Of a stretch of 64,000 bases of DNA, positions 4,384-39,254 are shown in pieces. The stretch lies in IMG/VR virus record IMGVR_UViG_3300045131_002298, positions 38,742 to 102,741 of that record. One strand, 5' to 3'. The notes below the pieces were generated by a model. It saw nothing but the letters and a program-made list of their open reading frames with translations. It made no database searches and was not told where the DNA came from. Origin of the DNA: a virus. The position numbers and the translations under genes were made by a program. Position 1 is the stretch's first letter. Each line of letters starts with the position of its first letter.

Positions 4384-4842
4384 TTATTGAGTAAGAGCCC
4401 AAGAATCAAAAGAAAATTCGCCTGTTCCGCCCGGAACGGGAGAGATTTGTGATTCTAGCTCTTCTGCTCTCCTTACATAAAATACTGAAAAAACTTGATC
4501 GGCATCTGCAAAAGGTGTAGTATCTACATCGCAAAAAGGCTCATTCGTAGAGAAATCATACCTCTTTCCTGCTATCAAAAAATACCATGAAGAATCTAAA
4601 GCTTCTAAACCTGAAGCCAATATATCTCTTGTGAGTAGAATGACTCTCTTTGAATTCTGATTTAAAATACCAGCGTCATTGTCTATTTCTAACTTTTCTC
4701 TACGCGCCCTAACTACTTCGTCATGTACTATAGCCTTATAATTAATAATCGTAGTATCAGTTACACAAGATATAGTTTTATTAGCTACAGAGTCAAACGT
4801 AGATTCCAATAAATATTTTGCCTGTGCGCCACGAGAGGCCAT
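4384..4842 (-). CDS. putative head-tail joining (stopper-like) protein
   Basis: Follows the adaptor gene; size and beta-rich pattern. Positional inference. Confidence 0.45.
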   Translation of the reverse strand: MASRGAQAKYLLESTFDSVANKTISCVTDTTIINYKAIVHDEVVRARREKLEIDNDAGILNQNSKRVILLTRDILASGLEALDSSWYFLIAGKRYDFSTNEPFCDVDTTPFADADQVFSVFYVRRAEELESQISPVPGGTGEFSFDSWALTQ

Positions 4843-5790
4843 TTAAGCTTCCTCTACTACTTCATCTAAAAGGGGATACACAAAATCTTCTGGGGAAATA
4901 AGAGTGCCGCCACGAATTTGGGAAATATAAGGTTTCATACGAAGATAAGCAGGAAGGGCGAATGCGCTCGTCATTGCTTGCATCATATTATATGTCGTAG
5001 TAGAAGATGTCGAACCGCCACTAGATGAGCTAGTAGAAGTAGTACTCACGTCCATAATTCCAGCTACCTTTACTTTGTCTACTATTGCATTTTGCAACGA
5101 TGTAGGAAGTAACGCTTCATCGGACATCGATATCTGCTCTAAAAGATTAGGCAATACTACCAACGAAGCCAATATAGCCTGAGCCTCTTTTATGGGAACG
5201 GGTATCATTGTAGTATCTCTTTGCACCGTTCTAGGGAAATCCAGCGCCTGATACTCATAAACCCGTTCACCTCTAATAGGCATAAATCCAATAAGCTCAG
5301 CAGCCAGTTTTAATATGTATTCTTTTGAATAACTAATATGATCTTCATACGTACCTGCTACAAAACCGAATACTGTGTATGCTGAAGTGTCTACTGGTTT
5401 TATATATAATGTATCTGTTGCTACTGTAGTAGTTATAACTATGCGTGAATCTGCTGTTGTTGTAAATGTAAATCCTGATACTTGTGCATTTAATGCAACA
5501 CATACTTGTGTTGATGTTAAAGGTATAGGATTATCATCGTCATCTAAGCTGCATGCTATAGTTATCTCTTGATCTGTACCTTCTCCTACAGCAAATAATA
5601 GTGTATCTGAGATTCCAGTAAGAGGCAAAAAAGGACCACTTACACGACCAGTATATCTTAATCCCTGATTGTCAGAAAGAGCGGACCACGATTCAGTAAC
5701 TAAACCAGTATTAGCTAATATTATTTCTGCTTCTTCTACTGTTATGTAGCTATCAGCGCTTGATCCACCAGGAGTTATTATTAAAGCCAT
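4843..5790 (-). CDS. head-tail adaptor (DnaT-like/gp15-type) with an inserted domain
   Basis: MALIITPG...ADSYITVEEA N-terminus and QALDFPR...IP..IKEAQA motif; internal insert resembles the sheath repeats. Confidence 0.7.
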   Translation of the reverse strand: MALIITPGGSSADSYITVEEAEIILANTGLVTESWSALSDNQGLRYTGRVSGPFLPLTGISDTLLFAVGEGTDQEITIACSLDDDDNPIPLTSTQVCVALNAQVSGFTFTTTADSRIVITTTVATDTLYIKPVDTSAYTVFGFVAGTYEDHISYSKEYILKLAAELIGFMPIRGERVYEYQALDFPRTVQRDTTMIPVPIKEAQAILASLVVLPNLLEQISMSDEALLPTSLQNAIVDKVKVAGIMDVSTTSTSSSSGGSTSSTTTYNMMQAMTSAFALPAYLRMKPYISQIRGGTLISPEDFVYPLLDEVVEEA

Positions 5791-5796
5791 ATTTTA

Positions 5797-6123
5797 TTAA
5801 ACCAATTTATCTTGCTTTTTATTATTAATAGGCGGCTTAATTGTGTTAGTTTTTACTGGAGTTATTTTCTTTTCTACTTCAGCCTCTTCTACTGCTTTTT
5901 GCAATGCGTCTTCTGCTTTTTCTTTTACAATTTTTTCTTGAATATTTTTTTCAATTCTAAATATTGACTTACCTGAAGAAAATTTCTGCTTAATTAAGAA
6001 TTTTGCTATACTTTCATCTACGGTTTTTACTGCGCCGCCTACAAAAGTTATATCTGCTTTATCGAAAATATAGTTATAAGTCGATCCAGGTCTACCCTGA
6101 CATGTGACTTTATATTCGCTCAT
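5797..6123 (-). CDS. hypothetical head-associated protein
   Basis: Directly downstream of the capsid gene. Confidence 0.55.
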   Translation of the reverse strand: MSEYKVTCQGRPGSTYNYIFDKADITFVGGAVKTVDESIAKFLIKQKFSSGKSIFRIEKNIQEKIVKEKAEDALQKAVEEAEVEKKITPVKTNTIKPPINNKKQDKLV

Positions 6124-6153
6124 AAATCATTACCCCAAAAATTAAATTGAAAG

Positions 6154-6180
6154 GAAAAAAGGCCGCCGATTTGGCGGCCC
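6154..6180 (-). terminator. Rho-independent terminator after the major capsid gene
   Basis: GGCCGCC-aaatc-GGCGGCC followed by a T-run on the minus strand. Confidence 0.8.
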
Positions 6181-6187
6181 TTGTTGT

Positions 6188-7144
6188 TTAGTAAGTTGTG
6201 GTACCCGTTGCTGTCAAGCCAGTGGCCTTAACTACTGCATCGGTTTCCTCGATAGCGAACGCGAGACGCATCGTCAAGACGATGACATGCGCACGTTCCC
6301 TAACCAACCTATCGGTTTCGATCTGAATTTTACGCTGAATTCCAAGAATCAAATTCTGAGGAAGCGTAAAAATATAATTAGCATCAGGCATCATAGCACA
6401 CGGAACTACCGGCACCCCAAAAGCCTTCAACATAGAAGCATAATCATTAGTGATTCTAACATCACCCATTGCGGTCTCTCTGAAAGACATCTGAGCCGCA
6501 AATTCTGACTCTAGGTAATGAGACACATAAAACTTCATCTGCCCTCTATTTCTGAGGTACTTTGTAGGCATAGCCTGAAGACCACGCTTAAAAATATCAA
6601 CATCAATATCAGACGGCGGGCTGGTATAATTTACCAAATGATCGTTGGCAGTTACCAATAGACCATTCATGAGCCCAATGTAAGGATCAGTCGCTGAGGT
6701 AAAGCCCAATATAATAAGCTCTTCCAGATCAATAGAGGCTCTCTCGGTGATCATAGACATGATCGTCGATTCCAACGTCCCGCGCTCAATGTTGTCTTCC
6801 AACACATCATAAGGCAGCCAGACTTCTGCTATGATTTCTTTAGTCAGAAGCTCTACCTTATCAGTAGAAGCAGCCGCTCTGGTCTGATAACCAGTTCCAC
6901 TAAGAGCCGTCCCAGATGCAGGAGCCGCCCTAAGAATTCTACTAGAAAAACCAATTTTATTGATTTCCATCGTAGGCGCATTCATAGGGACAACACGCAT
7001 TTCATTAAGGATGGTAGGTTGATCCACCAGCATACGAATAAAAGTATTTGCCTGTATCGGGTTCAAATAACCACCATTGTCAATAAGGTTCTGTACGGCT
7101 ATATCAGCCTTTTCTACTATAGTTTTTGGACTAAGTTTTCCCAT
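6188..7144 (-). CDS. major capsid protein (HK97-like fold)
   Basis: GGYLNPIQANTFI, YDVLEDNIERG, DLEELIILG and C-terminal EETDAVVK motifs; follows scaffold/protease; own terminator. Confidence 0.9.
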   Translation of the reverse strand: MGKLSPKTIVEKADIAVQNLIDNGGYLNPIQANTFIRMLVDQPTILNEMRVVPMNAPTMEINKIGFSSRILRAAPASGTALSGTGYQTRAAASTDKVELLTKEIIAEVWLPYDVLEDNIERGTLESTIMSMITERASIDLEELIILGFTSATDPYIGLMNGLLVTANDHLVNYTSPPSDIDVDIFKRGLQAMPTKYLRNRGQMKFYVSHYLESEFAAQMSFRETAMGDVRITNDYASMLKAFGVPVVPCAMMPDANYIFTLPQNLILGIQRKIQIETDRLVRERAHVIVLTMRLAFAIEETDAVVKATGLTATGTTTY

Positions 7145-28900: not shown

Positions 28901-29587
28901 ATGAGTATATTATCAAAAGCTATAAGGCGCGCCCTTGCAGGTAAAGACCCAGAGGGAGATATAAAAATAGGTGACATTTTTGGAGATTTAGAGGTTTTAG
29001 GTATAGGGGAGAAAAAAGGCACTAGTCGTCACATTCATTATGTGTGTTTATGTAGGGCCTGCGGAAAAGAAGTTACCATTCCCTCCTATAGATTAAAATC
29101 TGGAGCATCTAAGAGTTGTGGTTGTTCTAGAACCAAACACGGGCATACTAGTAGAATATTTAAAGGCGGAACGCACCCTTACCGCGTGCATGTAGAAATG
29201 CTGAGGCGCTGTAACGACAGCACCCACAGGGGGTTCGAGCGTTACGGGGCTCGCGGTATAAAAGTATGCGATAGGTGGAGCGGAGAAAATGGTTTTGAGA
29301 ATTTCTTTGAGGACATGGGCCCTGCGCCAGAGGGGTACCAACTTGACCGCATTGATGGTACTAAAGGGTATAGCCCGGAAAACTGCAAATGGTCTTCCAT
29401 TTTTGAGCAGAACCGCAACAGGAGGGACAATGTTTGGATAGAATACAACGGAGAGAAGTTAATTCTTCATGATTGGGGAGAAAAATGGGGAGTGTCTGGA
29501 AGTTTTATACAACGTCGTTTAAAAAAGGGCCTTTCTATGCGAGAAATAGAGGAAATTTGTGAATTAAAAAGGAATTTGGGAAAATGA
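28901..29587 (+). CDS. HNH homing endonuclease
   Basis: FGDLEV...CLC..CG, SCGC, RC...YGARGI.VC.RW, LDRID...YSPENCKW. Confidence 0.85.
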   Translation: MSILSKAIRRALAGKDPEGDIKIGDIFGDLEVLGIGEKKGTSRHIHYVCLCRACGKEVTIPSYRLKSGASKSCGCSRTKHGHTSRIFKGGTHPYRVHVEMLRRCNDSTHRGFERYGARGIKVCDRWSGENGFENFFEDMGPAPEGYQLDRIDGTKGYSPENCKWSSIFEQNRNRRDNVWIEYNGEKLILHDWGEKWGVSGSFIQRRLKKGLSMREIEEICELKRNLGK

Positions 29588-30040
29588 AAGTGTTATATGT
29601 TGTGACTTATGCGATCTCGGAATTCTCTGTTAAAAGCGGAATACTGGGGATATTTACAAGTCTGTATGCTGCAAATAAATATAAAAATAATGCTGAAATA
29701 GCGCTAAAAAATTCTGGACTTGCAGGCACTATTGATGTAGAGTCTAGCATAGTGGGAGACTCAAAAGATCCAGACGTTTTTTTTCGGGAGTTTTAATATG
29801 GCGAAAAAGTCACAAATAGAAAAAGAGAAAAAAGCATCTCTGCTTTGTTACATTAGCGATAAGCATCACACTTGTTTAGATAAAGTATACACTGGTAAGA
29901 TCCCAAAGAAGGATAACCCTAACGAAAATTATATTGTTAAAAAAGGTGTTGTAAAAGGAAGCATGTTTTGGTATGATGAGCCCATTATCTTCTCGGGGGG
30001 AGAAGAGGCGAGATACTGGCCTATAGGAGAAATAAAGTGA
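29584..30040 (+). other. two small hypothetical genes (29584..29796, 29798..30040)
   Basis: Coupled ORFs. Confidence 0.5.
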
Positions 30041-30741
30041 TATCTGATCCTTGGAAGAATGTGCGTGAAAAGACTTGTTTCGGAAATGAAGAGCCAAAAG
30101 TCAAGCTCATTGCTATTACTACTCCTTTAGGAAACTATGATCCCGAAGAGGTAGAGGGAAATATAGAATGCATGCCTGCATTAATGGCAACAGCCAGTTA
30201 TAATTCATCCTTAAATTCTATAGATAAAGCAACCGCTTTAAATAAAAAATTGTTGAAGATGAAACATGATACTCCCTTTGAGGTTATACAGTATGTTTTT
30301 CATGTAACCGGGATATCTAAAGCTGCCTCTGCTCAATGGAGTAGGCATCGTATCGGAGCTGGTCATATAAGCTTATCCCGTAGGTATACACAGCAGCAAC
30401 CTAAGTTTGTATATCCTACTTTAAATTATATGAAGAATGAGGATGAAGCGGAGGCTACTTATCAATTGATGTCAGGGGCGTGTGAAAATGCCTATAGAGC
30501 GTATAAGTTTCTTATAGACACAGGAGCAAAAAAGCAAGATGCGCGCTTAATTATGCCTGTCAACGTAGCAACTACTCGTAATGCTTGGGCTAATGCCCGT
30601 GCTCTCAGAGATTTTTTTAGACTACGTTTAGATCCTGCAGCAGAAGAAGAAATTCGTAGGCTAGCTTTTATGCTTTTAGGTATTGTTTATACTGCAACAC
30701 CTTCACTATTTGAGGACATCGTAGAAAAGTTTAAAAAATAA
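30037..30741 (+). CDS. thyX: FAD-dependent thymidylate synthase
   Basis: HDTPFE, QWSRHR...SRRY, QDARLIMP, NARAL..FF.LR....A..EIR. Confidence 0.92.
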   Translation: MISDPWKNVREKTCFGNEEPKVKLIAITTPLGNYDPEEVEGNIECMPALMATASYNSSLNSIDKATALNKKLLKMKHDTPFEVIQYVFHVTGISKAASAQWSRHRIGAGHISLSRRYTQQQPKFVYPTLNYMKNEDEAEATYQLMSGACENAYRAYKFLIDTGAKKQDARLIMPVNVATTRNAWANARALRDFFRLRLDPAAEEEIRRLAFMLLGIVYTATPSLFEDIVEKFKK

Positions 30742-30757
30742 TTGCAATTGATTGCAA
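30742..30757. repeat. 16-bp palindrome copy 4, 7 bp upstream of a -35 box
   Basis: TTGCAATTGATTGCAA. Confidence 0.85.
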
Positions 30758-30764
30758 AAAAAGC

Positions 30765-30793
30765 TTGACAAGCTTTTAAAAATGTGGTATAGT
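30765..30793 (+). promoter_or_regulatory. sigma70-type promoter driving the Y-RNA array and Ro60
   Basis: AAAGC-TTGACA-N17-TATAGT with TG. Confidence 0.8.
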
Positions 30794-30823
30794 ATATTTT
30801 AGAATTTGAGATCTTTGAAAATA

Positions 30824-30893
30824 AAAGCGCGGCGTAGAGCAGAGATACTTCACTTGAAATGAAACCAAAGCTTTGCTCGTTTTTTCCCGCTTT
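30824..30893 (+). ncRNA. Y-RNA-like unit 1 (minimal)
   Basis: AAAGCG/CGCTTT stem, bulged C, GG/CC, CGTA internal loop, GAGCAGAG/CTTTGCTC stem, ATACTTC. Confidence 0.7.
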
Positions 30894-30905
30894 AAACAGA
30901 AAAAC

Positions 30906-31041
30906 AAAAGTGACGGCGTAGATTAGAGTTACTCCATGCAAAGGCTGAGATACAGGTTTCGACTCCTGTTCTTCATGTATTTGAAGATAGTTTAACTGGC
31001 AAAACGCTGTAAATCTCTCTAATCGCTTTTTCCTCACTTTT
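30906..31041 (+). ncRNA. Y-RNA-like unit 2 (YrlA-type permuted tRNA module)
   Basis: Same scaffold, enclosing a T arm (ACAGG..TTCGACT.CCTGT), a closed acceptor-like stem (TCTTCA/TGAAGA) and a D arm (TAGTTTAACTGGCAAAAC). Confidence 0.8.
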
Positions 31042-31054
31042 TAATTTAAAAATT

Positions 31055-31124
31055 TAGCGACGGCATAGAATAGGGTTACTTCATCTAAGTTTTGGGCGAC
31101 TCCCTGCTCGTTTTTTCCTCGCTA
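31055..31124 (+). ncRNA. Y-RNA-like unit 3 (minimal)
   Basis: TAGCGA-C-GG-CATA-GAATAGGG-TTACTTC...CCCTGCTC-GTTTTTT-CC-TCGCTA. Confidence 0.7.
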
Positions 31125-31137
31125 TTTATTGCTTTAT

Positions 31138-31261
31138 TTGGCACGGCGTAGAGAAGAGATACTTCCAAAGCATGTCCACCAGAGGTTTTCTCACAGAAAT
31201 GTGTTTTTCCTCATAAAAATAAAAATGGGCAAAAAAGCCTCTTTTCGTTTTTTCCTGCCAA
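31138..31261 (+). ncRNA. Y-RNA-like unit 4
   Basis: TTGGCA-C-GG-CGTA-GAGAAGAG-ATACTTC...CTCTTTTC-GTTTTTT-CC-TGCCAA. Confidence 0.7.
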
Positions 31262-31272
31262 GACTTTTTAAG

Positions 31273-31400
31273 AAAGCGCTACGGCGTATAGAAGAGTTAC
31301 TTCTTATTAAAAATAAGTAACCGTTCAAATCGGTCCCAGCCTAAGCTGAGGGCGTCAACTGGCGAGACGCATTTCTCTTCTAGCTTTTTCCTAGCGCTTT
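31273..31400 (+). ncRNA. Y-RNA-like unit 5 (YrlA-type permuted tRNA module)
   Basis: Scaffold plus ACCG-TTCAAAT-CGGT T arm, CAGC/GCTG hairpin and GCGTC-AACTGGCGA-GACGC D arm. Confidence 0.78.
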
Positions 31401-31414
31401 ATGTTGGCTTTTGT

Positions 31415-31530
31415 GGTGCGGCGGCGCATATAACGGTTCCTTCGTGAAATGGTAACACACTAGGACTGAAAATATCCTAGGTTATAGGTTCAAATCCTAT
31501 AGGCCCCCGTTATAGCCTTTTCCCCGCGCT
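31415..31530 (+). ncRNA. Y-RNA-like unit 6 (D-anticodon-T module, GAA-like loop)
   Basis: Scaffold plus GTG-AAATGGTAA-CAC, CTAGGA-CTGAAAATA-TCCTAG and ATAGG-TTCAAAT-CCTAT. Confidence 0.75.
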
Positions 31531-31557
31531 TTTTCAATAAATTTCAAGGAGTTAGAA

Positions 31558-33090
31558 ATGTCTAGGTTTAATCAAATTGCTGAAAATCAGAGAAGAACAG
31601 TAAACGAAGAAGGGGCAGTGGCATATATAGGCCTGGATCCGGAGCAACAGCTCTACTCGGTTACAGCTTGTAACCTACTGCAAGACACTTTCTATAAGAA
31701 AACCGATCAGACTATTGCTACTATTTTAGATTTAATTCCTAAATGTGATCCACAGTTCGTGGCTAATTTAGCGGTTTACCTACGCAAAGATATGTATCTT
31801 AGGTCGGTACCTTTAGTGTTGCTAGTTGGACTGGCTCTTAACGATAAACTTACTGCTTCTATGGTATCTCGGGTTGTATCTAGGGCAGATGAAATAAAAG
31901 AGCTATTAGCTGCTTGGCAGGGGATAAAAGGTAAAGGCGGACACGATATTAGAAAAATTCCTAATGCCTTAAAGAAAGGTATAGCGGAATCTTTTAGTAA
32001 ATTTAATAGCTATCAGTTTAGAAAATACGATAAGCAGAGTAAAGAAAAGATTACATTTAAAGATGTCCTATGCTTATGTCACCCTAAGCCCAGAACAGGA
32101 GAAGAAAGCTCTATATACAAACAAATATTAGAGGATGCTCTAGATCCTATCACCACATGGGAAGTGGATATATCAGCCGCTGGTTCTGATCCAGTAGCTA
32201 AGAAAGCTGCATGGGAAAATCTACTAGATACCAATAGCATTCCTTATATGGCAGCTCTTCGTAATATTAAAAACATGTTGAAGGCTGGTATTAGTGAAGA
32301 GCATATTCAAAAATTGATAGCACTTTTAGGGAATGAACAACAGATTCTTAAATCTAAACAATTTCCCTTTAGGTGGTATTCTGCCTTTGCTAGATTAATG
32401 GAAGAGCGCGATCCTGAGATTCAAATGAACATGAATAGATTTCAGGAAGTGTTTGAGAAAGCTCTTATAATTTCTATTGATAATATTCCAGGTATAGGGG
32501 ATCTTAAAAAAGAAGCAACGCTGATAGCGTGTGATGTAAGTGGCTCCATGAATGACCCACTTTCAAAAAATTCTTCTATAAGACTTATAGATGTAGGCAT
32601 TCTTCTAGGAAGAATGCTGGCTAAGAAGTGTGGAAAAGTTATAACCGGGGTCTTCGGAACGGATTGGTCCCCTTGTAGCTTTGGGAATCAAATAATAGGT
32701 GGGGTACAATTACCTTCAGTAGGACTCTCGACATATGGTTATAAAATTTTCGATTGGTTGGTACAGGGTAATCTACACGTAGATAATATTATGCTCTTCT
32801 CTGATAGTCAGGTGTATGGGGATCTGGGTATAGGGAGACATAGCCATATTTTTGGAGTGAGAGAACCTTCTAGTAATAGATCTCAATTTGAAAAATCATG
32901 GAATAGGTATTTAAAGATTAATCCTCACGCTAAAGTTTATATGTTTGACTTGTCTTCTTACGGGACCTATCCTGTAGACTTGTTTTCTAAAAATGTATAC
33001 ATGGTTACCGGCTGGTCTCCTAATATTTTTCAAACTTTAGGTGGTTTGGACTCTTGGAAAAGTTTAAAACAACATATCTTAAGTATGTAG
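31558..33090 (+). CDS. rsr: Ro60/Rsr TROVE-domain RNA-binding protein with vWA domain
   Basis: VNEEGA.AY, LA.YLR..MYLRS.P, RADE, L.HPKP, TWE, YMAALRNI, PFR, DVSGSM (MIDAS), SDSQ, GWS. Confidence 0.93.
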   Translation: MSRFNQIAENQRRTVNEEGAVAYIGLDPEQQLYSVTACNLLQDTFYKKTDQTIATILDLIPKCDPQFVANLAVYLRKDMYLRSVPLVLLVGLALNDKLTASMVSRVVSRADEIKELLAAWQGIKGKGGHDIRKIPNALKKGIAESFSKFNSYQFRKYDKQSKEKITFKDVLCLCHPKPRTGEESSIYKQILEDALDPITTWEVDISAAGSDPVAKKAAWENLLDTNSIPYMAALRNIKNMLKAGISEEHIQKLIALLGNEQQILKSKQFPFRWYSAFARLMEERDPEIQMNMNRFQEVFEKALIISIDNIPGIGDLKKEATLIACDVSGSMNDPLSKNSSIRLIDVGILLGRMLAKKCGKVITGVFGTDWSPCSFGNQIIGGVQLPSVGLSTYGYKIFDWLVQGNLHVDNIMLFSDSQVYGDLGIGRHSHIFGVREPSSNRSQFEKSWNRYLKINPHAKVYMFDLSSYGTYPVDLFSKNVYMVTGWSPNIFQTLGGLDSWKSLKQHILSM

Positions 33091-33105: not shown

Positions 33106-33792
33106 ATGTATAAAGTACCCGATAGAATAGGCTTACGCTTTGGAAGACTATTAATAACAGAGAGGGGACCTTCACGCTCTGGTACTACTGATTCTTTTTG
33201 GTGGTGTCTTTGTGACTGTGGTAATATCGTTTTAGTTAGGTGGAGGTCCTTAAAAGGAGGAGCTACACAATCCTGTGGCTGTTATCAGAAAGAATGCGCT
33301 ATAAGGTCCCAGAGAGCCACCTTCTTAAAACATGATTTATCTAAAGATGCTTTATATGGCGTTATGCAGGGAATGAAAAATAGATGTTATAAAACAGATG
33401 ATCCTCATTATTCCAGATGGGGAGGAAGAGGAATTTATATCTGTGATGAGTGGAAAGAGAATTTTTTAGCTTTTTATGAGTGGGCTCAGCAGAGTGGATA
33501 CAAAAAGGGACTTTCCTTAGATCGTATAGATAATGACGGTCCTTACTCACCTAATAATTGTAGGTGGGCCACCAGAGAAGAGCAAATGAATAATACTAGA
33601 CATAATAAGTATATAACTTTTGAAGGTAAGACTCTAAGTGTAACTCAGTGGAGTAAACATTTAAATGTAAAAGCTAAAATATTGAGACAAAGGCTCCAGC
33701 GTGGATGGTCAGATGAAGAAGTAATAACAACTCCCCTAGGAATAAAAAGAATTTCCTGGAAAAGGTTAAAACAACAACCTGAGGGAATGTAA
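33106..33792 (+). CDS. HNH homing endonuclease
   Basis: FGRL...WWCLCDCG, SCGC, WGGRGI.IC.EW, SLDRIDNDGPYSPNNCRWAT. Confidence 0.9.
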   Translation: MYKVPDRIGLRFGRLLITERGPSRSGTTDSFWWCLCDCGNIVLVRWRSLKGGATQSCGCYQKECAIRSQRATFLKHDLSKDALYGVMQGMKNRCYKTDDPHYSRWGGRGIYICDEWKENFLAFYEWAQQSGYKKGLSLDRIDNDGPYSPNNCRWATREEQMNNTRHNKYITFEGKTLSVTQWSKHLNVKAKILRQRLQRGWSDEEVITTPLGIKRISWKRLKQQPEGM

Positions 33793-34502: not shown

Positions 34503-34622
34503 GGAAAGAGTAGCCGAATGATATAGGCGCGCAAAGAAGCGTGTGCAAGGTGGGGCACGGTAACCTAGGCAACAATCGTGTTCATGCTGAGCCAACTGCG
34601 GGTTTGACTCCTGCCTCTTTCC
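34503..34622 (+). ncRNA. tRNA-like RNA with expanded interior
   Basis: GGAAAGAG/CTCTTTCC acceptor, TA-GCC...GGC D arm and GCGGG-TTTGACT-CCTGC T arm; about 70 nt replace the anticodon/variable arms. Confidence 0.55.
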
Positions 34623-34629
34623 TACCTAC

Positions 34630-34707
34630 GGTGGCGTAGCATAAATTGGATAATGCCCTGGCTTGTCAAGCCAGCTTATGAGAGATCATACCTCTTCGCC
34701 ATCGCCA
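34630..34707 (+). tRNA. tRNA-Asp(GTC)
   Basis: GGTGGCG/CGCCATC acceptor, CTGGC-TTGTCAA-GCCAG anticodon arm, G discriminator plus CCA; atypical T loop ATCATAC. Confidence 0.85.
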
Positions 34708-34717
34708 ATAAAAAATA

Positions 34718-35035
34718 ATGACAATAGAAATAGTCAACAATTATACTTTTCCAAAGAAGAAAAAACAAGAAGCGATAGAGGAAGTTGTTATGTCTGAACC
34801 AGAAATGGAAATTATAAACCCTGCTCCCGTAATGGTAAATAATGGGCAGTTTCCTGCACTTGCGACTAATTTGCATGAAGAACTTAATAGTTATTTAGGA
34901 AGATCTAAAGAAGCGGTGGCTCAAATTTTAGTTACTACTAGAGAGAAGGCTGAGTTTCTTGAGTCCTTAGCGGAAAAAGCGCGCAAGGACCTTGATAAAG
35001 AAAAACACGATATTACTCGCCTTATGGGTGGGTGA
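34718..35035 (+). CDS. hypothetical protein
   Basis: ORF between tRNA genes. Confidence 0.5.
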   Translation: MTIEIVNNYTFPKKKKQEAIEEVVMSEPEMEIINPAPVMVNNGQFPALATNLHEELNSYLGRSKEAVAQILVTTREKAEFLESLAEKARKDLDKEKHDITRLMGG

Positions 35036-35043
35036 TGTAAAGA

Positions 35044-35141
35044 GTCTGCCGCGGTGACATAAGAACACCATGCGTGTCTATGAAAGGAGAACCGTAAGCC
35101 GCTCCTGGAGAGCGCCGGAGAACTGGAGGCCGAAGGTAGAC
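35044..35141 (+). ncRNA. possible structured RNA, family unrecognised
   Basis: GC-rich island closed by GTCTGCC/GGTAGAC, with internal GACAT/GTGTC, GCGG/CCGC and CTCC/GGAG pairings. Confidence 0.35.
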
Positions 35142-35154
35142 AATCTTTAACTTG

Positions 35155-35234
35155 GGCGGGGTGACCGAGAGATTAGGTGGGTAGTTTTGCAAAACTACCC
35201 TTATACGCAGGTTTAATTCCTGCCCCTGCCTCCA
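35155..35234 (+). tRNA. tRNA-Cys(GCA)-like, enlarged anticodon arm
   Basis: GGCGGGG/CCCTGCC acceptor, T discriminator plus CCA; the anticodon arm is the perfect palindrome GGGTAGTTTTGCAAAACTACCC. Confidence 0.7.
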
Positions 35235-35238
35235 TTTT

Positions 35239-35324
35239 GCTGCGGTAGCCTAGTAGCGAAGGCATCTGACTGTAGATCAGACACATAAGAACCACCGGAG
35301 GCGCACATCCTTCCCGCAGCACCA
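35239..35324 (+). tRNA. tRNA-Tyr(GTA)
   Basis: GCTGCGG/CCGCAGC acceptor, TCTGA-CTGTAGA-TCAGA anticodon arm, long variable arm, A plus CCA; atypical T loop CGCACAT. Confidence 0.85.
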
Positions 35325-35339
35325 ACTTAGGAGTTTATT

Positions 35340-35612
35340 ATGAAAAAATATATTTTACTTTGCTTATGTTTATTCCTATTAGTGGGATGTGGAGATAAGG
35401 CCAGTAGAGATGCTGCTAGAGAAGCTAAAGAGTCTGGTAAGCTTCAGGCTTTTGAGGTAGATGATCTTCATTATGTTGTGGGCTATGGTGAATGGGATGG
35501 AAATACTTTTCGTATACGTGATATAGATGGACGCATTTGGGATGTTCCTTCTACAGTAAGAATTACAAAAGAAGAAGTTACCGAAGAATCGTTTAAAAAG
35601 CGCACAAAATAA
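35340..35612 (+). CDS. putative lipoprotein
   Basis: MKKYILLCLCLFLLVGC lipobox signal. Confidence 0.7.
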   Translation: MKKYILLCLCLFLLVGCGDKASRDAAREAKESGKLQAFEVDDLHYVVGYGEWDGNTFRIRDIDGRIWDVPSTVRITKEEVTEESFKKRTK

Positions 35613-35628
35613 CTGATTGATCTTGTAT

Positions 35629-35644
35629 TTGCAATTGATTGCAA
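35629..35644. repeat. 16-bp palindrome copy 5 (intergenic)
   Basis: TTGCAATTGATTGCAA. Confidence 0.85.
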
Positions 35645-35726: not shown

Positions 35727-35755
35727 TTGACAAGCATTAAAATCTATGATATACA
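35727..35755 (+). promoter_or_regulatory. sigma70-type promoter
   Basis: TTGACA-N17-TATACA with TG. Confidence 0.7.
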
Positions 35756-36155: not shown

Positions 36156-37331
36156 ATGAAAAAAGTAATTTCGTCTGAACGTATCCCGATTAAGATGTGG
36201 CTAGATGACATCAAGGATGGAGCATTGCAGCAAGCTAAGAACCTAGCTAATGCTCCTTTTACCTATAGACATATTGTGGTCTGTCCCGACGCGCACCAGG
36301 GCGAAGGGCCGTTTATCGGAGCTGTGTTTGCTACAAAGGATGTTGTCGTAATTAATGGGGCTGGGGTTGATATTGGTTGTGGCGTCGCTTTTGTAGAAAC
36401 TTCCTTAAAAAGAGAAGATTTAGATATCTCTATTCTAAAAAATATTATGGGGGCAATAAGAAAAAATATTCCAGTAGGCTTTGATAAGCATACCCAGATT
36501 ATAGAAGGTTTAGAGATGCCTACTACAGATATTAATAAAGATACACATCCTGTAATATCTAAAGAGTTTAAAAAAGCACAACTCTCCTTGATGACTTTGG
36601 GCGGAGGCAACCACTTCGAAGAAATACAAGTTAATTCAGCAGGTTACGTGTGTTTCATGATACATTCTGGGTCTAGAAATTTAGGAAAACAGGTAGCGGA
36701 TCACTACAATAAAATAGCTAAAAAATTAAACGAAGACTGCTATTCTTCTGTTCCCTCTTCTCATAAACTACATTTTATTCCTATTAAGTATGATGAGGCT
36801 AAATTATATCTTAACGAAATGAATTATTGTTTAGAGTATGCGCATCTAAATAGAGAATACATGATTAATAATATTAAGAACGTATTCTTATCTTTTTTTC
36901 CGGATCTTACTTTTACACCTACTCTAAATGTACACCATAATTATATTAGATGGGAGCATTTTTCTGGGGAAGATTTTCTTATACATAGAAAGGGCGCAAC
37001 TTCCGCTAGATTAGAAGAGTTGGGTATCGTGCCGGGGTCGCAGGGAACCGCATCATTTTTGACTAAGGGAAAGGGTAATGCAGACTCTTTTAATTCTTGC
37101 TCACATGGAAGCGGAAGGACTATGAGCAGAACTAGAGCTAAGGCTGAGCTTGATCTTGAAAAAGAAAAAAAGATATTAGACGATCAAGGGATCATACATA
37201 GCATTAGAAATGTTTCAGACTTAGATGAAGCTCCTAGCTCTTATAAGGATGTAGAAGTAGTTATGGAGAATCAGAAAGACCTAGTGGATATAGTAGATAG
37301 ACTGACACCTTTAGGTGTAGTGAAAGGATAG
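36156..37331 (+). CDS. rtcB: RtcB RNA ligase (3'-P/2',3'-cyclic-P to 5'-OH)
   Basis: PDAH.G.G..IG, GVDIGCG, GGGNHF, HSGSR, HHNY, HRKGA, PGSQG, SHGSGR, DEAP..YK. Confidence 0.95.
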   Translation: MKKVISSERIPIKMWLDDIKDGALQQAKNLANAPFTYRHIVVCPDAHQGEGPFIGAVFATKDVVVINGAGVDIGCGVAFVETSLKREDLDISILKNIMGAIRKNIPVGFDKHTQIIEGLEMPTTDINKDTHPVISKEFKKAQLSLMTLGGGNHFEEIQVNSAGYVCFMIHSGSRNLGKQVADHYNKIAKKLNEDCYSSVPSSHKLHFIPIKYDEAKLYLNEMNYCLEYAHLNREYMINNIKNVFLSFFPDLTFTPTLNVHHNYIRWEHFSGEDFLIHRKGATSARLEELGIVPGSQGTASFLTKGKGNADSFNSCSHGSGRTMSRTRAKAELDLEKEKKILDDQGIIHSIRNVSDLDEAPSSYKDVEVVMENQKDLVDIVDRLTPLGVVKG

Positions 37332-38234: not shown

Positions 38235-39254
38235 ATGGAAAGAAAATTAGCATCTATCCAAAGAGTTAAGGCAATAGACCCAATAGATAATGCGGATGCA
38301 ATAGAAAGAGTTAGCATTCTAGGATGGGCTTGCGTAGCCAGAAAAGGTGAGTTTAAAGTTGGAGATCTTTGTGTGTATTGTGAAATTGATTCCATGTTGC
38401 CAGAGATAGACGCATTTGAGTTTATGCGGCCTAGAGGATTCAGAGTGCGCTCCATTAGACTTCGCGGGCAGATTAGCCAAGGCATAGCTTTACCTATCAG
38501 TAATCTTAATTTAAATATCAGCTATCTCCAGGAAGGTGACGATGTAACCCAACAACTAGGAATAAAGAAATACTTTAGGCCCGGAGACAGAGAGATTCGT
38601 GCCAGACTTTTTGCTGACGCTAAAGGCCTACTTCCCGGGTTCTGCAAAAAAACTGATGAATTTAGAATTCAGTCATATCCTAGGTTATTAGACGATATGT
38701 CGGGCATGGAGGTTTATCAGGCAGTAAAACTGGACGGTAGCTCAATGACTGTATATTATAATAATAAGATAGAGGAGCCTTTCGGTGTTTGCTCTCGTAA
38801 CCTTAATCTTAAAGAAGATGAACAAAACAGCTTTTGGAAAGTGGCAAATAACTATGGATTAAAGGAAAAACTAGAAAAACTAGACATTAACCTATACCTT
38901 CAACTGGAACTTTGTGGCCCCGGGGTCCAGAAGAACCCATTAGGTTTAAAAGACTTAGACGCCTTTACCTTTAACGTCCATTTCTTGGATAGTGGGACAT
39001 ACGGTGGAAAAGAAGAGATAGAAGAAATATGTAAGAAGCTGGGACTCAAAACTGTACCTATTGAAGATGTTTACATAATGAACTATGCTCTGGAAGACCT
39101 ACTAGAAAAAGCTAAAGGTAAATATGATGGTACTAAGAATCATAGGGAAGGAATAGTAGTAAGGCCTCGAGAAGCTAAACTGTCTCCTCGGCTGGGTTAC
39201 GCGCTACTTTCATTTAAATGCCTCAATAATGATTATCTACTGAAAGAAGAATAG
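38235..39254 (+). CDS. ATP-dependent RNA ligase (DRB0094/Rnl2-like with N-terminal OB fold)
   Basis: RKLASIQ...PI.NAD.IE, EIDS, LRGQISQG, KTDE.RIQ, KLDGSS, CSRN, EL.GPG.Q.N, REG.V, SFK. Confidence 0.9.
   Translation: MERKLASIQRVKAIDPIDNADAIERVSILGWACVARKGEFKVGDLCVYCEIDSMLPEIDAFEFMRPRGFRVRSIRLRGQISQGIALPISNLNLNISYLQEGDDVTQQLGIKKYFRPGDREIRARLFADAKGLLPGFCKKTDEFRIQSYPRLLDDMSGMEVYQAVKLDGSSMTVYYNNKIEEPFGVCSRNLNLKEDEQNSFWKVANNYGLKEKLEKLDINLYLQLELCGPGVQKNPLGLKDLDAFTFNVHFLDSGTYGGKEEIEEICKKLGLKTVPIEDVYIMNYALEDLLEKAKGKYDGTKNHREGIVVRPREAKLSPRLGYALLSFKCLNNDYLLKEE

What the first reader, a model, noticed from the sequence alone, without database searches (positions are those of the whole stretch)
30824..31530. 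Six-unit modular Y-RNA array co-transcribed with Ro60: constant scaffold, swappable payload
Seen: between a strong promoter (30765) and the TROVE gene lie six units. Each has the architecture stem1 - bulged C - GG - C(G/A)(T/C)A - stem2 - (T/A)TACTTC-like - VARIABLE - stem2' - G(T/C)TTTTT-like - CC - stem1'. Stem sequences differ between units yet stay paired (AAAGCG/CGCTTT, AAAAGTGA/TCACTTTT, TAGCGA/TCGCTA, TTGGCA/TGCCAA, AAAGCGCTA/TAGCGCTTT, GGTGCGG/CCGCGCT), which is covariation. Payloads: about 20-nt loops (units 1, 3), an A/U-rich insert (4), permuted T-acceptor-D tRNA mimics (2, 5) and a D-anticodon-T mimic (6). Established: Ro60/Rsr binds a bulged-C helix in Y RNAs; YrlA RNAs carry a tRNA-like domain and typically occur as one or two genes beside rsr. 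Inference: the phage builds a panel of Ro RNPs with different effector modules, for example decoys for tRNA-targeting defence nucleases, tethers for PNPase or ligases, or short guides.
Basis: partly seen in the sequence, partly recalled or inferred. Interest (0 to 1): 0.85.

Follow-up and report, generated by a model that had tools for sequence, protein, structure and literature searches.

The report
Six-gene Y RNA array beside phage Ro60
An uncultured lake-water phage carries six small RNA genes in a row in front of its Ro60 (RNA quality-control ring protein) gene. All six share one "handle" but display different interiors, three of them tRNA look-alikes, and this layout proves common beside Ro60 genes of phages and bacteria although papers describe only one to four such RNAs per organism.

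Summary
Window 30824-31530 holds six tandem units with one architecture: stem1, bulged C, GG, CGUA, 8-bp stem2, UUACUUC, variable insert, stem2', G-N4-5-UU, CC, stem1'. A covariance model built only from short units finds all six, and nothing else in the 102.7-kb phage. Two close relatives keep all six units with compensatory stem changes.

The TROVE/Ro60 gene, a near-consensus promoter and the lack of a clear terminator are all there. Lake metatranscriptome contigs cover the array at higher depth than its flanks.

The handle carries a one-base variant of the published YrlA motif GNCGAAN0-1G. U5, and U2 weakly, are YrlA-type (T, acceptor-like, D arms). U6 is Yrn1-type (D, anticodon-like, T arms).

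The array is not exceptional. The same handle gave 224 hits in 81 searched viral Ro60 loci and 196 in 80 bacterial ones, all on the Ro60 strand, in arrays of up to eight. Cultured Caulobacter phage CcrColossus has eight.

RtcB and a second RNA ligase lie 3-5 kb downstream of the Ro60 gene, echoing the bacterial rsr-yrlBA-rtcBA repair operon. Ro60 binding, processing and function remain inferred. The "guide" idea found no support.

The scan has noted such arrays before on other DNA.

Verdict: a real Y RNA array, and a new variant of a known kind.

The parts
30742..30757 (.). TTGCAATTGATTGCAA element just upstream of the promoter. It recurs at 35621-35636, about 90 bp ahead of a second CTTGACAAGC promoter-like site.
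   Evidence: Read directly. RNA contigs with loose ends at 30769/30770 run on into other promoter-like sequence.
30765..30793 (+). Sigma-70-type promoter: TTGACA, 17 nt, TG-extended TATAGT.
   Evidence: 11 of 12 matches. Conserved in L001 and L002. Metatranscriptome contigs break here and depth rises about 4-5-fold in X1-X3.
30824..30893 (+). U1: handle plus a 26-nt loop (simple hairpin Y RNA, YrlB/Yrn2-like).
   Evidence: (78.1 bits).
30906..31041 (+). U2: handle plus a degenerate T, acceptor-like, D tRNA-like insert. The insert is well formed in relative L001 and eroded in L002.
   Evidence: (55.8 bits; not in the training set).
31055..31124 (+). U3: handle plus a 26-nt loop with a small hairpin.
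   Evidence: (76.8 bits).
31137..31262 (+). U4: handle plus an 80-nt A/U-rich structured insert. Its inner hairpin covaries: CACA/UGUG in the window, CCUA/UAGG in L002.
   Evidence: (50.2 bits; not in the training set).
31273..31400 (+). U5: handle plus a YrlA-type insert: V hairpin, T arm with UUCAAAU loop, acceptor-like stem, D arm with GG loop.
   Evidence: 57.3 bits; the T stem changes ACCG/CGGU to AUCG/CGAU in the relatives; z -3.47.
31415..31530 (+). U6: handle plus a Yrn1-type insert in D, anticodon-like, T order. Handle stem2 takes the place of the acceptor stem.
   Evidence: Rfam tRNA 38.6 bits at 31435-31508; ARAGORN does not call it; 39.9 bits; the T stem changes UAUAGG/CCUAUA to UGCAGG/CCUGCA.
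31546..31551 (+). Shine-Dalgarno AAGGAG of the Ro60 gene.
   Evidence: Read directly.
31558..33090 (+). Ro60/Rsr-like protein, 510 aa: TROVE domain plus a vWA domain with a DxSxS (MIDAS-type) motif.
   Evidence: PF05731, E 3.4e-23. (phrog_850, E 2.4e-44). (closest solved structure: Thermus phage phiLo Ro60 9KOP/9L5Y, E 2.9e-21). (D326, S328 and S330 invariant).
34630..35321 (+). Small tRNA cluster: tRNA-Asp 34630-34707, a tRNA-like element at 35155-35231, and a tRNA with a long variable arm at 35239-35321.
36156..37331 (+). RtcB RNA ligase.
   Evidence: PF01139, E 6.5e-99..
38235..39254 (+). Rnl-type RNA ligase: PHA02142 OB fold plus RNA_ligase domain.

Best explanation
The stretch is a polycistronic Y RNA operon.

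Proposed course of events:
- Transcription from the near-consensus promoter at 30765-30793 yields a precursor with six Y-RNA-type modules, followed by the Ro60 mRNA.
- Host RNases cut the A/U-rich 10-14-nt spacers. This releases six RNAs of about 70-136 nt.
- Each RNA is closed by the same handle: stem1, bulged pyrimidine, G-C/G-C, an asymmetric internal loop (CGUA opposite G-N4-5-UU), an 8-bp stem2, and single-stranded UACUUC.
- The handle is the docking site for the phage Ro60 ring. Its GGCGUAG is a one-base variant of the published Rsr-binding motif GNCGAAN0-1G of YrlA RNAs.
- The variable inserts give each Ro60 particle a different partner surface. U5 (and U2) show a YrlA-type tRNA mimic, U6 a Yrn1-type tRNA mimic, U4 an A/U-rich structured module, and U1/U3 plain loops.
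- With the tRNA genes, RtcB and the second RNA ligase just downstream, the likeliest job is RNA (chiefly tRNA) surveillance, decay and repair during infection. This would work by tethering Ro60 to host enzymes such as PNPase or to tRNA-handling enzymes, plausibly to blunt host RNA-cleaving defences.

Shown here: the six units, the handle, its covariation, and its genome-wide and cross-lineage linkage to Ro60 genes.

Inferred: transcription as one precursor, processing, Ro60 binding, the partners and the biological role.
For: - Units and handle.
- Exactly six hits in the 102.7-kb genome, all in the array.
- Units outside the training set are found full-length.
- Covariation.
- All six units are kept, with compensatory changes, in two related contigs.
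- Linkage to Ro60. Four of the five other contigs with handle hits, found purely by a DNA pattern, have the units directly upstream of a TROVE gene. There are 224 hits in 81 viral sources and 196 in 80 bacterial loci, every one on the TROVE strand and next to the gene.
- Overlap with known YrlA. Sub-threshold Rfam YrlA hits lie inside handle units in L023/L068, L047, Gordonia phage Neville and CcrColossus.
- The motif GGCGUAG matches the published GNCGAAN0-1G closely, and one unit of L036 has the canonical GGCGAAG.
- No conserved ORF lies in the array.
- Promoter present, no clear terminator before the Ro60 gene.
- Lake metatranscriptome contigs: array contig 30825-31303 at depth 36-56, against 7-11 upstream and about 20 over the Ro60 gene.
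- RtcB and Rnl lie downstream.
- Published precedents: M. smegmatis YrlA and YrlB lie upstream of rsr and are processed from one precursor (PMC4201824). Phage phiLo Ro60 binds two upstream Y-like RNAs and host PNPase (PMC12135203). Bas63 Ro60-like gp130 counters the Ppl defence (PMC11482910). The rsr-yrlBA-rtcBA operon responds to damaged tRNA (PMC7790460).
Against: - No direct evidence that Ro60 binds these RNAs or that discrete RNAs accumulate.
- The RNA data are assembled contigs from one sample plus one weaker run, so they give no ends, no strand and only crude levels.
- Rfam YrlA and Y_RNA models give no hit in the array, even at E up to 10.
- The motif differs from the published one at one position.
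- Folding energies of U1, U3 and U6 are barely better than shuffles.
- One handle unit (L005) sits in a 37.5-kb phage contig with no TROVE gene. The handle may therefore not strictly need a cis-encoded Ro60.
- The host is unknown, so the partners cannot be named.
Confidence: 0.72

Rival explanations
1. The units are cis-acting parts of the Ro60 mRNA leader. On this view they are six Ro60-binding sites that autoregulate translation or stability of the Ro60 message, not independent trans-acting RNAs.
For: Same promoter, no clear terminator, and the array ends 27 nt before the start codon. A U-run follows stem2' in every unit, and one was flagged as terminator-like in U3.
Against: - In many other loci the array lies downstream of the Ro60 gene: viral L062, L064 and L077 and most Bacteroidota loci. 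It cannot be a leader there.
- Inserts with conserved, covarying tRNA-like folds have no use in a leader.
- Array contigs show higher depth than the Ro60 gene.
- M. smegmatis YrlA/YrlB are processed from such a precursor (PMC4201824).
Confidence: 0.08
2. The RNAs act without Ro60. The handle would be a stability or processing module, and the tRNA-like inserts would serve as decoys or substrates for host tRNA-targeting nucleases or tRNA enzymes, with Ro60 merely a neighbour.
For: One handle unit sits in a contig without TROVE. Three of six inserts mimic tRNA. tRNA genes and RNA ligases lie nearby.
Against: Near-universal adjacency and same-strand orientation to TROVE genes across very distant phages and bacteria. 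The handle carries the published Rsr-binding motif. Half of the units have no tRNA-like part.
Confidence: 0.12
3. The array is a decayed or rearranged tRNA gene cluster (tRNA pseudogenes, split or permuted tRNAs) with no special function.
For: The Rfam tRNA model scores U6 at 38.6 bits. In CcrColossus an annotated tRNA-Gln lies inside a unit. Real tRNA genes lie 3 kb away.
Against: ARAGORN calls no tRNA in the array. U1, U3 and U4 have no tRNA parts. The invariant handle with compensatory changes shows selection on a non-tRNA structure. The U6 'acceptor' is handle stem2, and its anticodon-like loop has 9 nt, or 6 nt in the relatives.
Confidence: 0.03

Closest known systems
YrlA / YrlB Y RNAs with Rsr (Salmonella Typhimurium, Mycobacterium smegmatis, mycobacteriophages; Rfam RF02553; Chen et al. 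2014, PMC4201824)
   Same: - Encoded next to the Ro60 gene on the same strand.
- A 5' motif close to GNCGAAN0-1G, then a stem, then a YUAY-like element (here UUAC).
- U5 and U2 carry the T, acceptor-like, D tRNA mimic.
- A second, simple-hairpin Y RNA (YrlB type) accompanies it.
- In M. smegmatis both RNAs lie upstream of rsr and come from one precursor.
   Different: - Six units rather than two.
- The motif is GGCGUAG (A to U at one place).
- Both strands of the handle are conserved, with an invariant UACUUC.
- The Rfam YrlA model does not score any unit.
- Four of the six units lack the YrlA tRNA-like domain.
Deinococcus radiodurans Yrn1/Yrn2 and the Ro60-Y RNA-PNPase (RYPER) machine (Chen et al. 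2013, as cited in PMC4201824; Chen et al. 2014, PMC4201824)
   Same: U6 has the Yrn1 orientation (D, anticodon-like arm, T). In the relatives its anticodon-like arm has a 5-bp stem and a 6-nt loop, as described for Yrn1. Both strands of the Ro-binding helix are retained. Several small RNAs are encoded upstream of rsr.
   Different: No sequence homology was tested (Yrn1 has no Rfam model hit here). PNPase tethering is unproven. Here the Yrn1-type and YrlA-type modules share one handle in one operon, whereas the paper regarded them as independent inventions.
Thermus phage phiLo Ro60 with Yrl1 and Yrl2 (PMC12135203; PDB 9KOP, 9L5Y)
   Same: It has the closest solved protein (E 2.9e-21). It is a phage Ro60 with Y-like RNAs directly upstream, a stem, bulge, stem layout around a CGAA-type motif, and shown binding to Ro60 and host PNPase.
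   Different: Two RNAs, not six. No tRNA-like inserts are reported. I did not compare its RNA sequences with the handle model.
rsr-yrlBA-rtcBA RNA repair operon of Salmonella (PMC7790460)
   Same: Ro60, Y RNAs and RtcB are linked in one genomic neighbourhood. The theme is tRNA damage.
   Different: Here the locus is in a phage. RtcB lies 3.1 kb after the Ro60 gene, behind its own promoter-like site, with an HNH gene, small ORFs and tRNA genes between. I saw no RtcA or RtcR in the ORFs I scanned. A second, Rnl-type ligase is present.
Metazoan Y RNAs (human Y1, Y3, Y4, Y5)
   Same: A small family of RNAs shares a Ro-binding bulged helix formed by the 5' and 3' ends and differs in the internal loop that recruits other proteins. 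The bulged pyrimidine lies next to the conserved helix.
   Different: They are separate Pol III genes, not one operon. There are no tRNA-like modules. The motif is different (GGUCCGA).

Membership tests
Y RNA (functional class: Ro60-bound non-coding RNA) | Encoded near the Ro60 gene, on the same strand | tested here: met
   The array ends 27 nt before the TROVE start. The handle is linked to TROVE genes in 73 of 78 further viral loci, and all 452 hits in TROVE loci lie on the TROVE strand.
Y RNA (functional class: Ro60-bound non-coding RNA) | The 5' and 3' ends pair into a bulged helix carrying a conserved Ro-binding motif, with a variable module inside | tested here: met
   Handle architecture and covariation. 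The bulge is C in 29 of 33 units and U in 4.
Y RNA (functional class: Ro60-bound non-coding RNA) | Physically bound and stabilised by Ro60 | not testable with these tools
   Needs EMSA, RIP or structural work.
YrlA (Rfam RF02553) | Score at or above the Rfam gathering threshold (69 bits) | tested here: not met
   No YrlA hit in 30500-31800, even at E up to 10. However, accepted phage examples (CcrColossus, Gordonia Neville, phage G) also reach only 30-46 bits.
YrlA (Rfam RF02553) | GNCGAAN0-1G motif near the 5' end | tested here: inconclusive
   The units have GGCGUAG, GGCAUAG, GGCGUAU or GGCGCAU: one or two departures from the motif. Relatives' units with the same handle have GGCGAAG (L036).
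YrlA (Rfam RF02553) | tRNA-like domain in T arm, acceptor-like stem, D arm order, with a canonical T loop and a GG D loop | tested here: met
   Met for U5 (T loop UUCAAAU or UUCGAAU, a D loop with GG, covarying T stem). Weak for U2. Absent in U1, U3, U4 and U6 (by inspection and RNAfold).
Yrn1-type Y RNA (D. radiodurans) | tRNA-like domain in D, anticodon-like arm, T order, closed by the Ro-binding helix | tested here: met
   U6: the Rfam tRNA model aligns D, anticodon-like and T arms at 31435-31508, with handle stem2 as the 'acceptor'. This is an architectural match only; sequence homology to Yrn1 was not tested.
tRNA (RF00005), for U6 | Cloverleaf with a 7-bp acceptor stem and a 7-nt anticodon loop, called by tRNA finders | tested here: not met
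   The Rfam score of 38.6 exceeds the threshold of 29. But four acceptor pairs are non-standard, the anticodon-like loop has 9 nt (6 in the relatives), and ARAGORN does not call it.
Ro60/Rsr protein | TROVE HEAT-repeat ring plus a vWA domain with a MIDAS motif | tested here: met
   PF05731, E 3.4e-23. Full-length phrog_850 match. phiLo Ro60 structure, E 2.9e-21. Invariant D-x-S-x-S at 326-330 in alignment A3. The vWA Pfam domain is seen in relatives; the fold was not modelled.

The most novel reading that the evidence does not exclude
The handle is a universal Ro60 adaptor on which cargo modules are exchanged between units and between genomes. On this reading, YrlA-type and Yrn1-type tRNA mimics are interconvertible cargo rather than independent inventions.

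The phage would then field six different Ro60 particles that, together with RtcB and Rnl, form a dedicated hub for RNA repair and counter-defence.

The mosaic pattern among the three relatives fits cassette shuffling guided by the repeated handles:
- the U4 insert is 100% identical between the window and L001;
- the U1 handle is 100% and its loop 84% identical between the window and L002;
- the U6 insert is 97% identical between L001 and L002 but only about 70% to the window's.
Probability: 0.25. Interest if true: 0.7.

Novelty: new variant of a known kind. Interest (0 to 1): 0.5.

Why it matters
What bacterial and phage Ro60 particles do, and why their Y RNAs mimic tRNA, is still open.

This locus, and the hundreds like it that the handle model uncovers, show three things:
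- Ro60 genes commonly come with whole panels of Y RNAs (up to eight), not one or two.
- One conserved handle carries both known kinds of tRNA mimic as well as non-tRNA modules.
- In this phage the panel sits with tRNA genes and two RNA ligases.

This gives a concrete, searchable definition of the Ro60 docking module that the current Rfam YrlA model largely misses. It also points to a cultured test system, CcrColossus on Caulobacter, with eight units. And it supplies a natural set of 'same handle, different cargo' RNAs for asking which partner each cargo recruits.

Tried and rejected
- Rfam at gathering thresholds and at E up to 10 gave no Y_RNA or YrlA hit in the array, only the tRNA model on U6.
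- blastn of the locus against 50,697 phage records gave no match.
- The Listeria phage CKA15 paper (PMC12282133) looked like a lead. It only speculates about Y RNAs, and its gene order differs (tRNAs upstream of Ro60), so I dropped it as a relative.
- Guide hypothesis. The longest complement of the U1, U3 and U4 loops in the phage genome is 12 nt. Of 300 shuffled loops, 44, 37 and 208 respectively did as well or better. This is chance level. Host targets could not be tested because the host is unknown.
- Folding energy as evidence is weak. Single-unit z-scores are only -0.9 to -3.5, and -2.5 for the whole array.
- ORFs overlapping the array (minus strand 116 aa, plus strand 63 aa) are not conserved in the relatives, so I rejected them as genes.
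- The joint 30933 to 31263 in RNA contigs comes with nearby indels typical of a related strain. I treat it as a relative's contig, not a spliced or deleted form.
- The metatranscriptome data are contigs only, so they give no ends or strand. I found no listed contig bridging U6 to the Ro60 gene.
- The Chen 2014 supplementary tables (number of YrlA per phage) and the 2020 Annual Review on bacterial Ro60 are not held. I therefore cannot exclude that multi-copy loci are tabulated there.
- L005 has a handle unit but no TROVE gene in its 37.5-kb contig. This remains unexplained.
Full report
**What is there.** The window is the last 64 kb of a 102,741-base uncultured phage record. Public runs place it in lake and other freshwater samples. 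A thymidylate synthase (ThyX) gene lies at 30037-30741 and a 510-aa TROVE/Ro60 gene at 31558-33090 (Pfam TROVE E 3.4e-23). The 816 bases between them have no ORF conserved in relatives.

This stretch starts with a near-consensus promoter: TTGACA, 17 nt, TG-extended TATAGT at 30765-30793. Six units follow at 30824-30893, 30906-31041, 31055-31124, 31137-31262, 31273-31400 and 31415-31530. Spacers of 10-14 nt with 64-100% A+T separate them.

Every unit reads stem1 (6-9 bp), bulged C, GG, CGUA-like, 8-bp stem2, (U/A)UACUUC-like, insert, stem2', G plus a U-run, CC, stem1'. RNAfold gives this handle as the minimum-energy fold for five of the six.

**More than chance.** I built covariance model R1 from nine short units only: U1 and U3 of the window and of two relatives, plus three units of a distant contig.
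- It finds all six window units full-length, including the four it was not trained on, at E 1e-7 to 1e-12.
- It finds nothing else in the whole phage genome.
- On the nine-unit alignment, 95% of cells pair and 12 of 16 pairs change on both sides. Sliding the 3' partner by 1-3 columns drops pairing to 44-52%.
- On 33 units from eight contigs the figures are 97.5% and 14 of 16. That alignment is fitted to the model and so leans towards it.
- Single-unit folding energies are only modestly better than shuffles, z -0.9 to -3.5. The argument rests on covariation and comparison, not on energy.

**Close relatives.** Two IMG/VR contigs have Ro60 proteins 98% and 91% identical to the window's. Both keep the promoter and all six units in the same order.
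- Stems change in a compensatory way. U1 stem2 is GAGCAGAG/CUUUGCUC in the window and AAACAGAG/CUCUGUUU in a relative. U2 stem1 is AAAAGUGA/UCACUUUU against AAAAAGAG/CUCUUUUU. U3 stem1 is UAGCGA/UCGCUA against UACCGG/CCGGUA.
- Handles stay 78-100% identical, while inserts fall as low as 52-72%. The Ro60 gene itself is 88-94% identical at the DNA level.
- The pattern is mosaic. The U4 insert is identical between the window and L001. The U1 handle is identical between the window and L002, with the loop 84% alike. U6 is nearly identical between L001 and L002 but only about 70% identical to the window's. This suggests exchange of units between lineages.

**The inserts.**
- U1 and U3 have 26-nt loops, counting UUACUUC.
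- U4 has an 80-nt A/U-rich insert with nested stems. Its inner hairpin covaries (CACA/UGUG against CCUA/UAGG).
- U5 has a small hairpin, then a T arm (loop UUCAAAU, or UUCGAAU in the relatives; stem ACCG/CGGU against AUCG/CGAU). An acceptor-like stem and a D arm with a GG loop follow. This is the V, T, AS, D order that defines YrlA (PMC4201824).
- U2 has the same order but is degenerate in the window, well formed in L001 and eroded in L002.
- U6 has the opposite order: D arm, anticodon-like arm, T arm. Handle stem2 stands in for the acceptor stem. The Rfam tRNA model scores it 38.6 bits, but ARAGORN does not call it. The anticodon-like loop has 9 nt, and in the relatives a 5-bp stem with a 6-nt loop. 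That is the oddity described for Deinococcus Yrn1.

**Link to Ro60 across lineages.** A DNA pattern taken from the handle, scanned over 2.9 million viral contigs, gave mostly single chance hits. R1 kept only five other contigs from that scan. In four of them (L023, L036, L046, L047) the units lie directly upstream of a TROVE gene.

I then fetched loci around diverse TROVE genes and searched them with model R2 (33 units).

| Set searched | Hits | Notes |
|---|---|---|
| 78 further viral TROVE loci, plus the window, L001 and L002 | 224 (18 of them in the window, L001, L002) | All on the TROVE strand; almost all abut the gene; 73 of 78 loci have at least one hit |
| 10 cultured-phage loci plus 4 IMG/VR loci | 32 | 31 lie in TROVE loci, all on the TROVE strand; one is the L005 unit (minus strand of a contig with no TROVE) |
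| 80 bacterial Ro60 loci, mainly Bacteroidota, some Clostridia | 196 | All on the Ro60 strand; mostly just downstream of the gene |

- In the viral set, nine loci have five or more units, with a maximum of eight (L065, L132).
- Among cultured phages, Caulobacter phage CcrColossus has eight units upstream of gp139. One of them encloses an annotated tRNA-Gln. Xanthomonas phage Tabio has four units, a Brevundimonas phage three, Rhizobium phage Y65 three, and Gordonia phage Neville two.
- In bacteria, arrays reach eight units (Rapidithrix thailandica) and seven (Dokdonia).
- No hit fell on the opposite strand in about 1.2 million bases of TROVE loci.

**Relation to known families.** The handle's GGCGUAG is one base away from the published Rsr-binding motif GNCGAAN0-1G. 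Its UUAC matches the YUAY that follows in YrlA. Some units in relatives have the canonical GGCGAAG.

Rfam's YrlA model (RF02553, threshold 69 bits) gives no hit in the window, even at E up to 10. However, it reaches only 30-46 bits in phages already credited with YrlA. Those sub-threshold hits lie inside handle units found by R2 in L023/L068, L047, Neville and CcrColossus. The handle family therefore contains YrlA-type RNAs and is wider than the Rfam model.

Several precedents are in print:
- Several Y RNAs per organism.
- A tRNA-like Y RNA paired with a plain hairpin one.
- Location upstream of rsr and processing from one precursor.
- A phage Ro60 that binds two upstream Y-like RNAs and host PNPase.

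I found no paper describing arrays of five to eight units or the shared handle. The supplementary tables of Chen 2014 and the 2020 review are not held.

Earlier notes of this scan report the same kind of array, with 4 to 11 units, next to Ro60-like genes on other DNA. I read them after making my own survey, and they agree with it.

**Expression.** Three metatranscriptome runs of one freshwater sample hold 97-98% of the sampled words of the locus, and a fourth run holds 42%.
- Their contigs break at the promoter: one ends at 30787 and the next starts at 30825.
- The array contig (30825-31303) has mean depth 36-56. The upstream genes have 7-11 and the Ro60 gene about 20.
- Depth varies about 30-fold over the 10 kb laid. 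That argues for RNA rather than contaminating DNA.
- These are assembled contigs from essentially one sample. They show no ends and no strand, and they sum related strains. I count this as a hint of transcription from the predicted promoter and no more.

**Context and mechanism.** Downstream of Ro60 lie:
- an HNH endonuclease (33106-33792);
- small ORFs;
- three tRNA or tRNA-like genes (34630-35321);
- RtcB (36156-37331, E 6.5e-99);
- an Rnl-type RNA ligase (38235-39254).

This recalls the bacterial rsr-yrlBA-rtcBA repair operon, which answers tRNA damage (PMC7790460). A Ro60-like protein of phage Bas63 is reported to counter the Ppl defence.

My best reading (confidence about 0.7) is that one precursor is cut into six Y RNAs, each docking on the phage Ro60 through the handle. 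The different inserts would then couple the ring to different partners: tRNA-handling or repair enzymes for U5/U2, a PNPase-type partner for U6 by analogy with Yrn1, and unknown partners for U1, U3 and U4. The whole would serve RNA surveillance and repair during infection.

Binding, processing and partners are all inferred.

**Verdict.** Reading it as a modular Y RNA array tied to Ro60 is well supported by comparative evidence. Its functional reading is plausible but untested. The premise that such arrays are unusual is wrong: six units is in the upper range of a common layout. I rate it a new variant of a known kind (Ro60 with Y RNAs), of moderate interest. Most of its value lies in the general handle definition and in the cultured test system it points to.

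Noticed in passing
window 36156-37331 and 38235-39254: RtcB (E 6.5e-99) and an Rnl-type RNA ligase (PHA02142 OB fold plus RNA_ligase) lie 3-5 kb downstream of the Ro60 gene.
   Followed up: partly
window 34504-34627 and 35155-35231: Two odd tRNA-like elements. By eye, the first has acceptor, D and T arms but about 60 extra bases in place of the anticodon arm. The second scores 34 bits on the tRNA model with an enlarged anticodon region. ARAGORN calls neither.
   Followed up: partly
window 30742-30757 and 35621-35636: The element TTGCAATTGATTGCAA lies directly upstream of the array promoter (CTTGACAAGC) and about 90 bp upstream of a second CTTGACAAGC promoter-like site at 35727. RNA contigs that match up to 30769/30770 run on into at least three other promoter-like sequences. 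A family of similar early promoters seems to exist in this phage and its relatives.
   Followed up: no
window 35340-35612: A 90-aa ORF with a lipoprotein-type signal (LLVGCG) lies in the bin with by far the highest metatranscriptome contig depth of the 10 kb laid: about 78-150, against 5-55 elsewhere.
   Followed up: no
L054 (Caulobacter phage CcrColossus) 1761-2956: This published cultured phage has an unannotated eight-unit handle array upstream of gp139. Its annotated tRNA-Gln (locus 2173-2240) sits inside one unit (2168-2334), so it is probably Y RNA cargo and not a free tRNA.
   Followed up: partly
L167 (Rapidithrix thailandica) 4635-6364; L165 (Dokdonia sp.) 4752-6074: Chromosomal Ro60 genes of Bacteroidota are followed by arrays of seven to eight handle units. 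Multi-Y-RNA arrays are therefore not a phage speciality. The cellular Ro60 proteins closest to the window's (35-40% identity) are nearly all from Bacteroidota.
   Followed up: partly
L005 10042-10111 (minus strand): A single strong handle unit (52.5 bits with R2) lies in a 37.5-kb phage contig (84% complete) that has no TROVE gene. It sits upstream of small ORFs and a PD-(D/E)XK nuclease gene.
   Followed up: partly
window 28901-29587 and 33106-33792: Two paralogous 228-aa HNH endonuclease genes (phrog_374) lie on either side of the ThyX, Y RNA array and Ro60 block (the first about 450 bp upstream of ThyX), as if homing elements have inserted around it.
   Followed up: no
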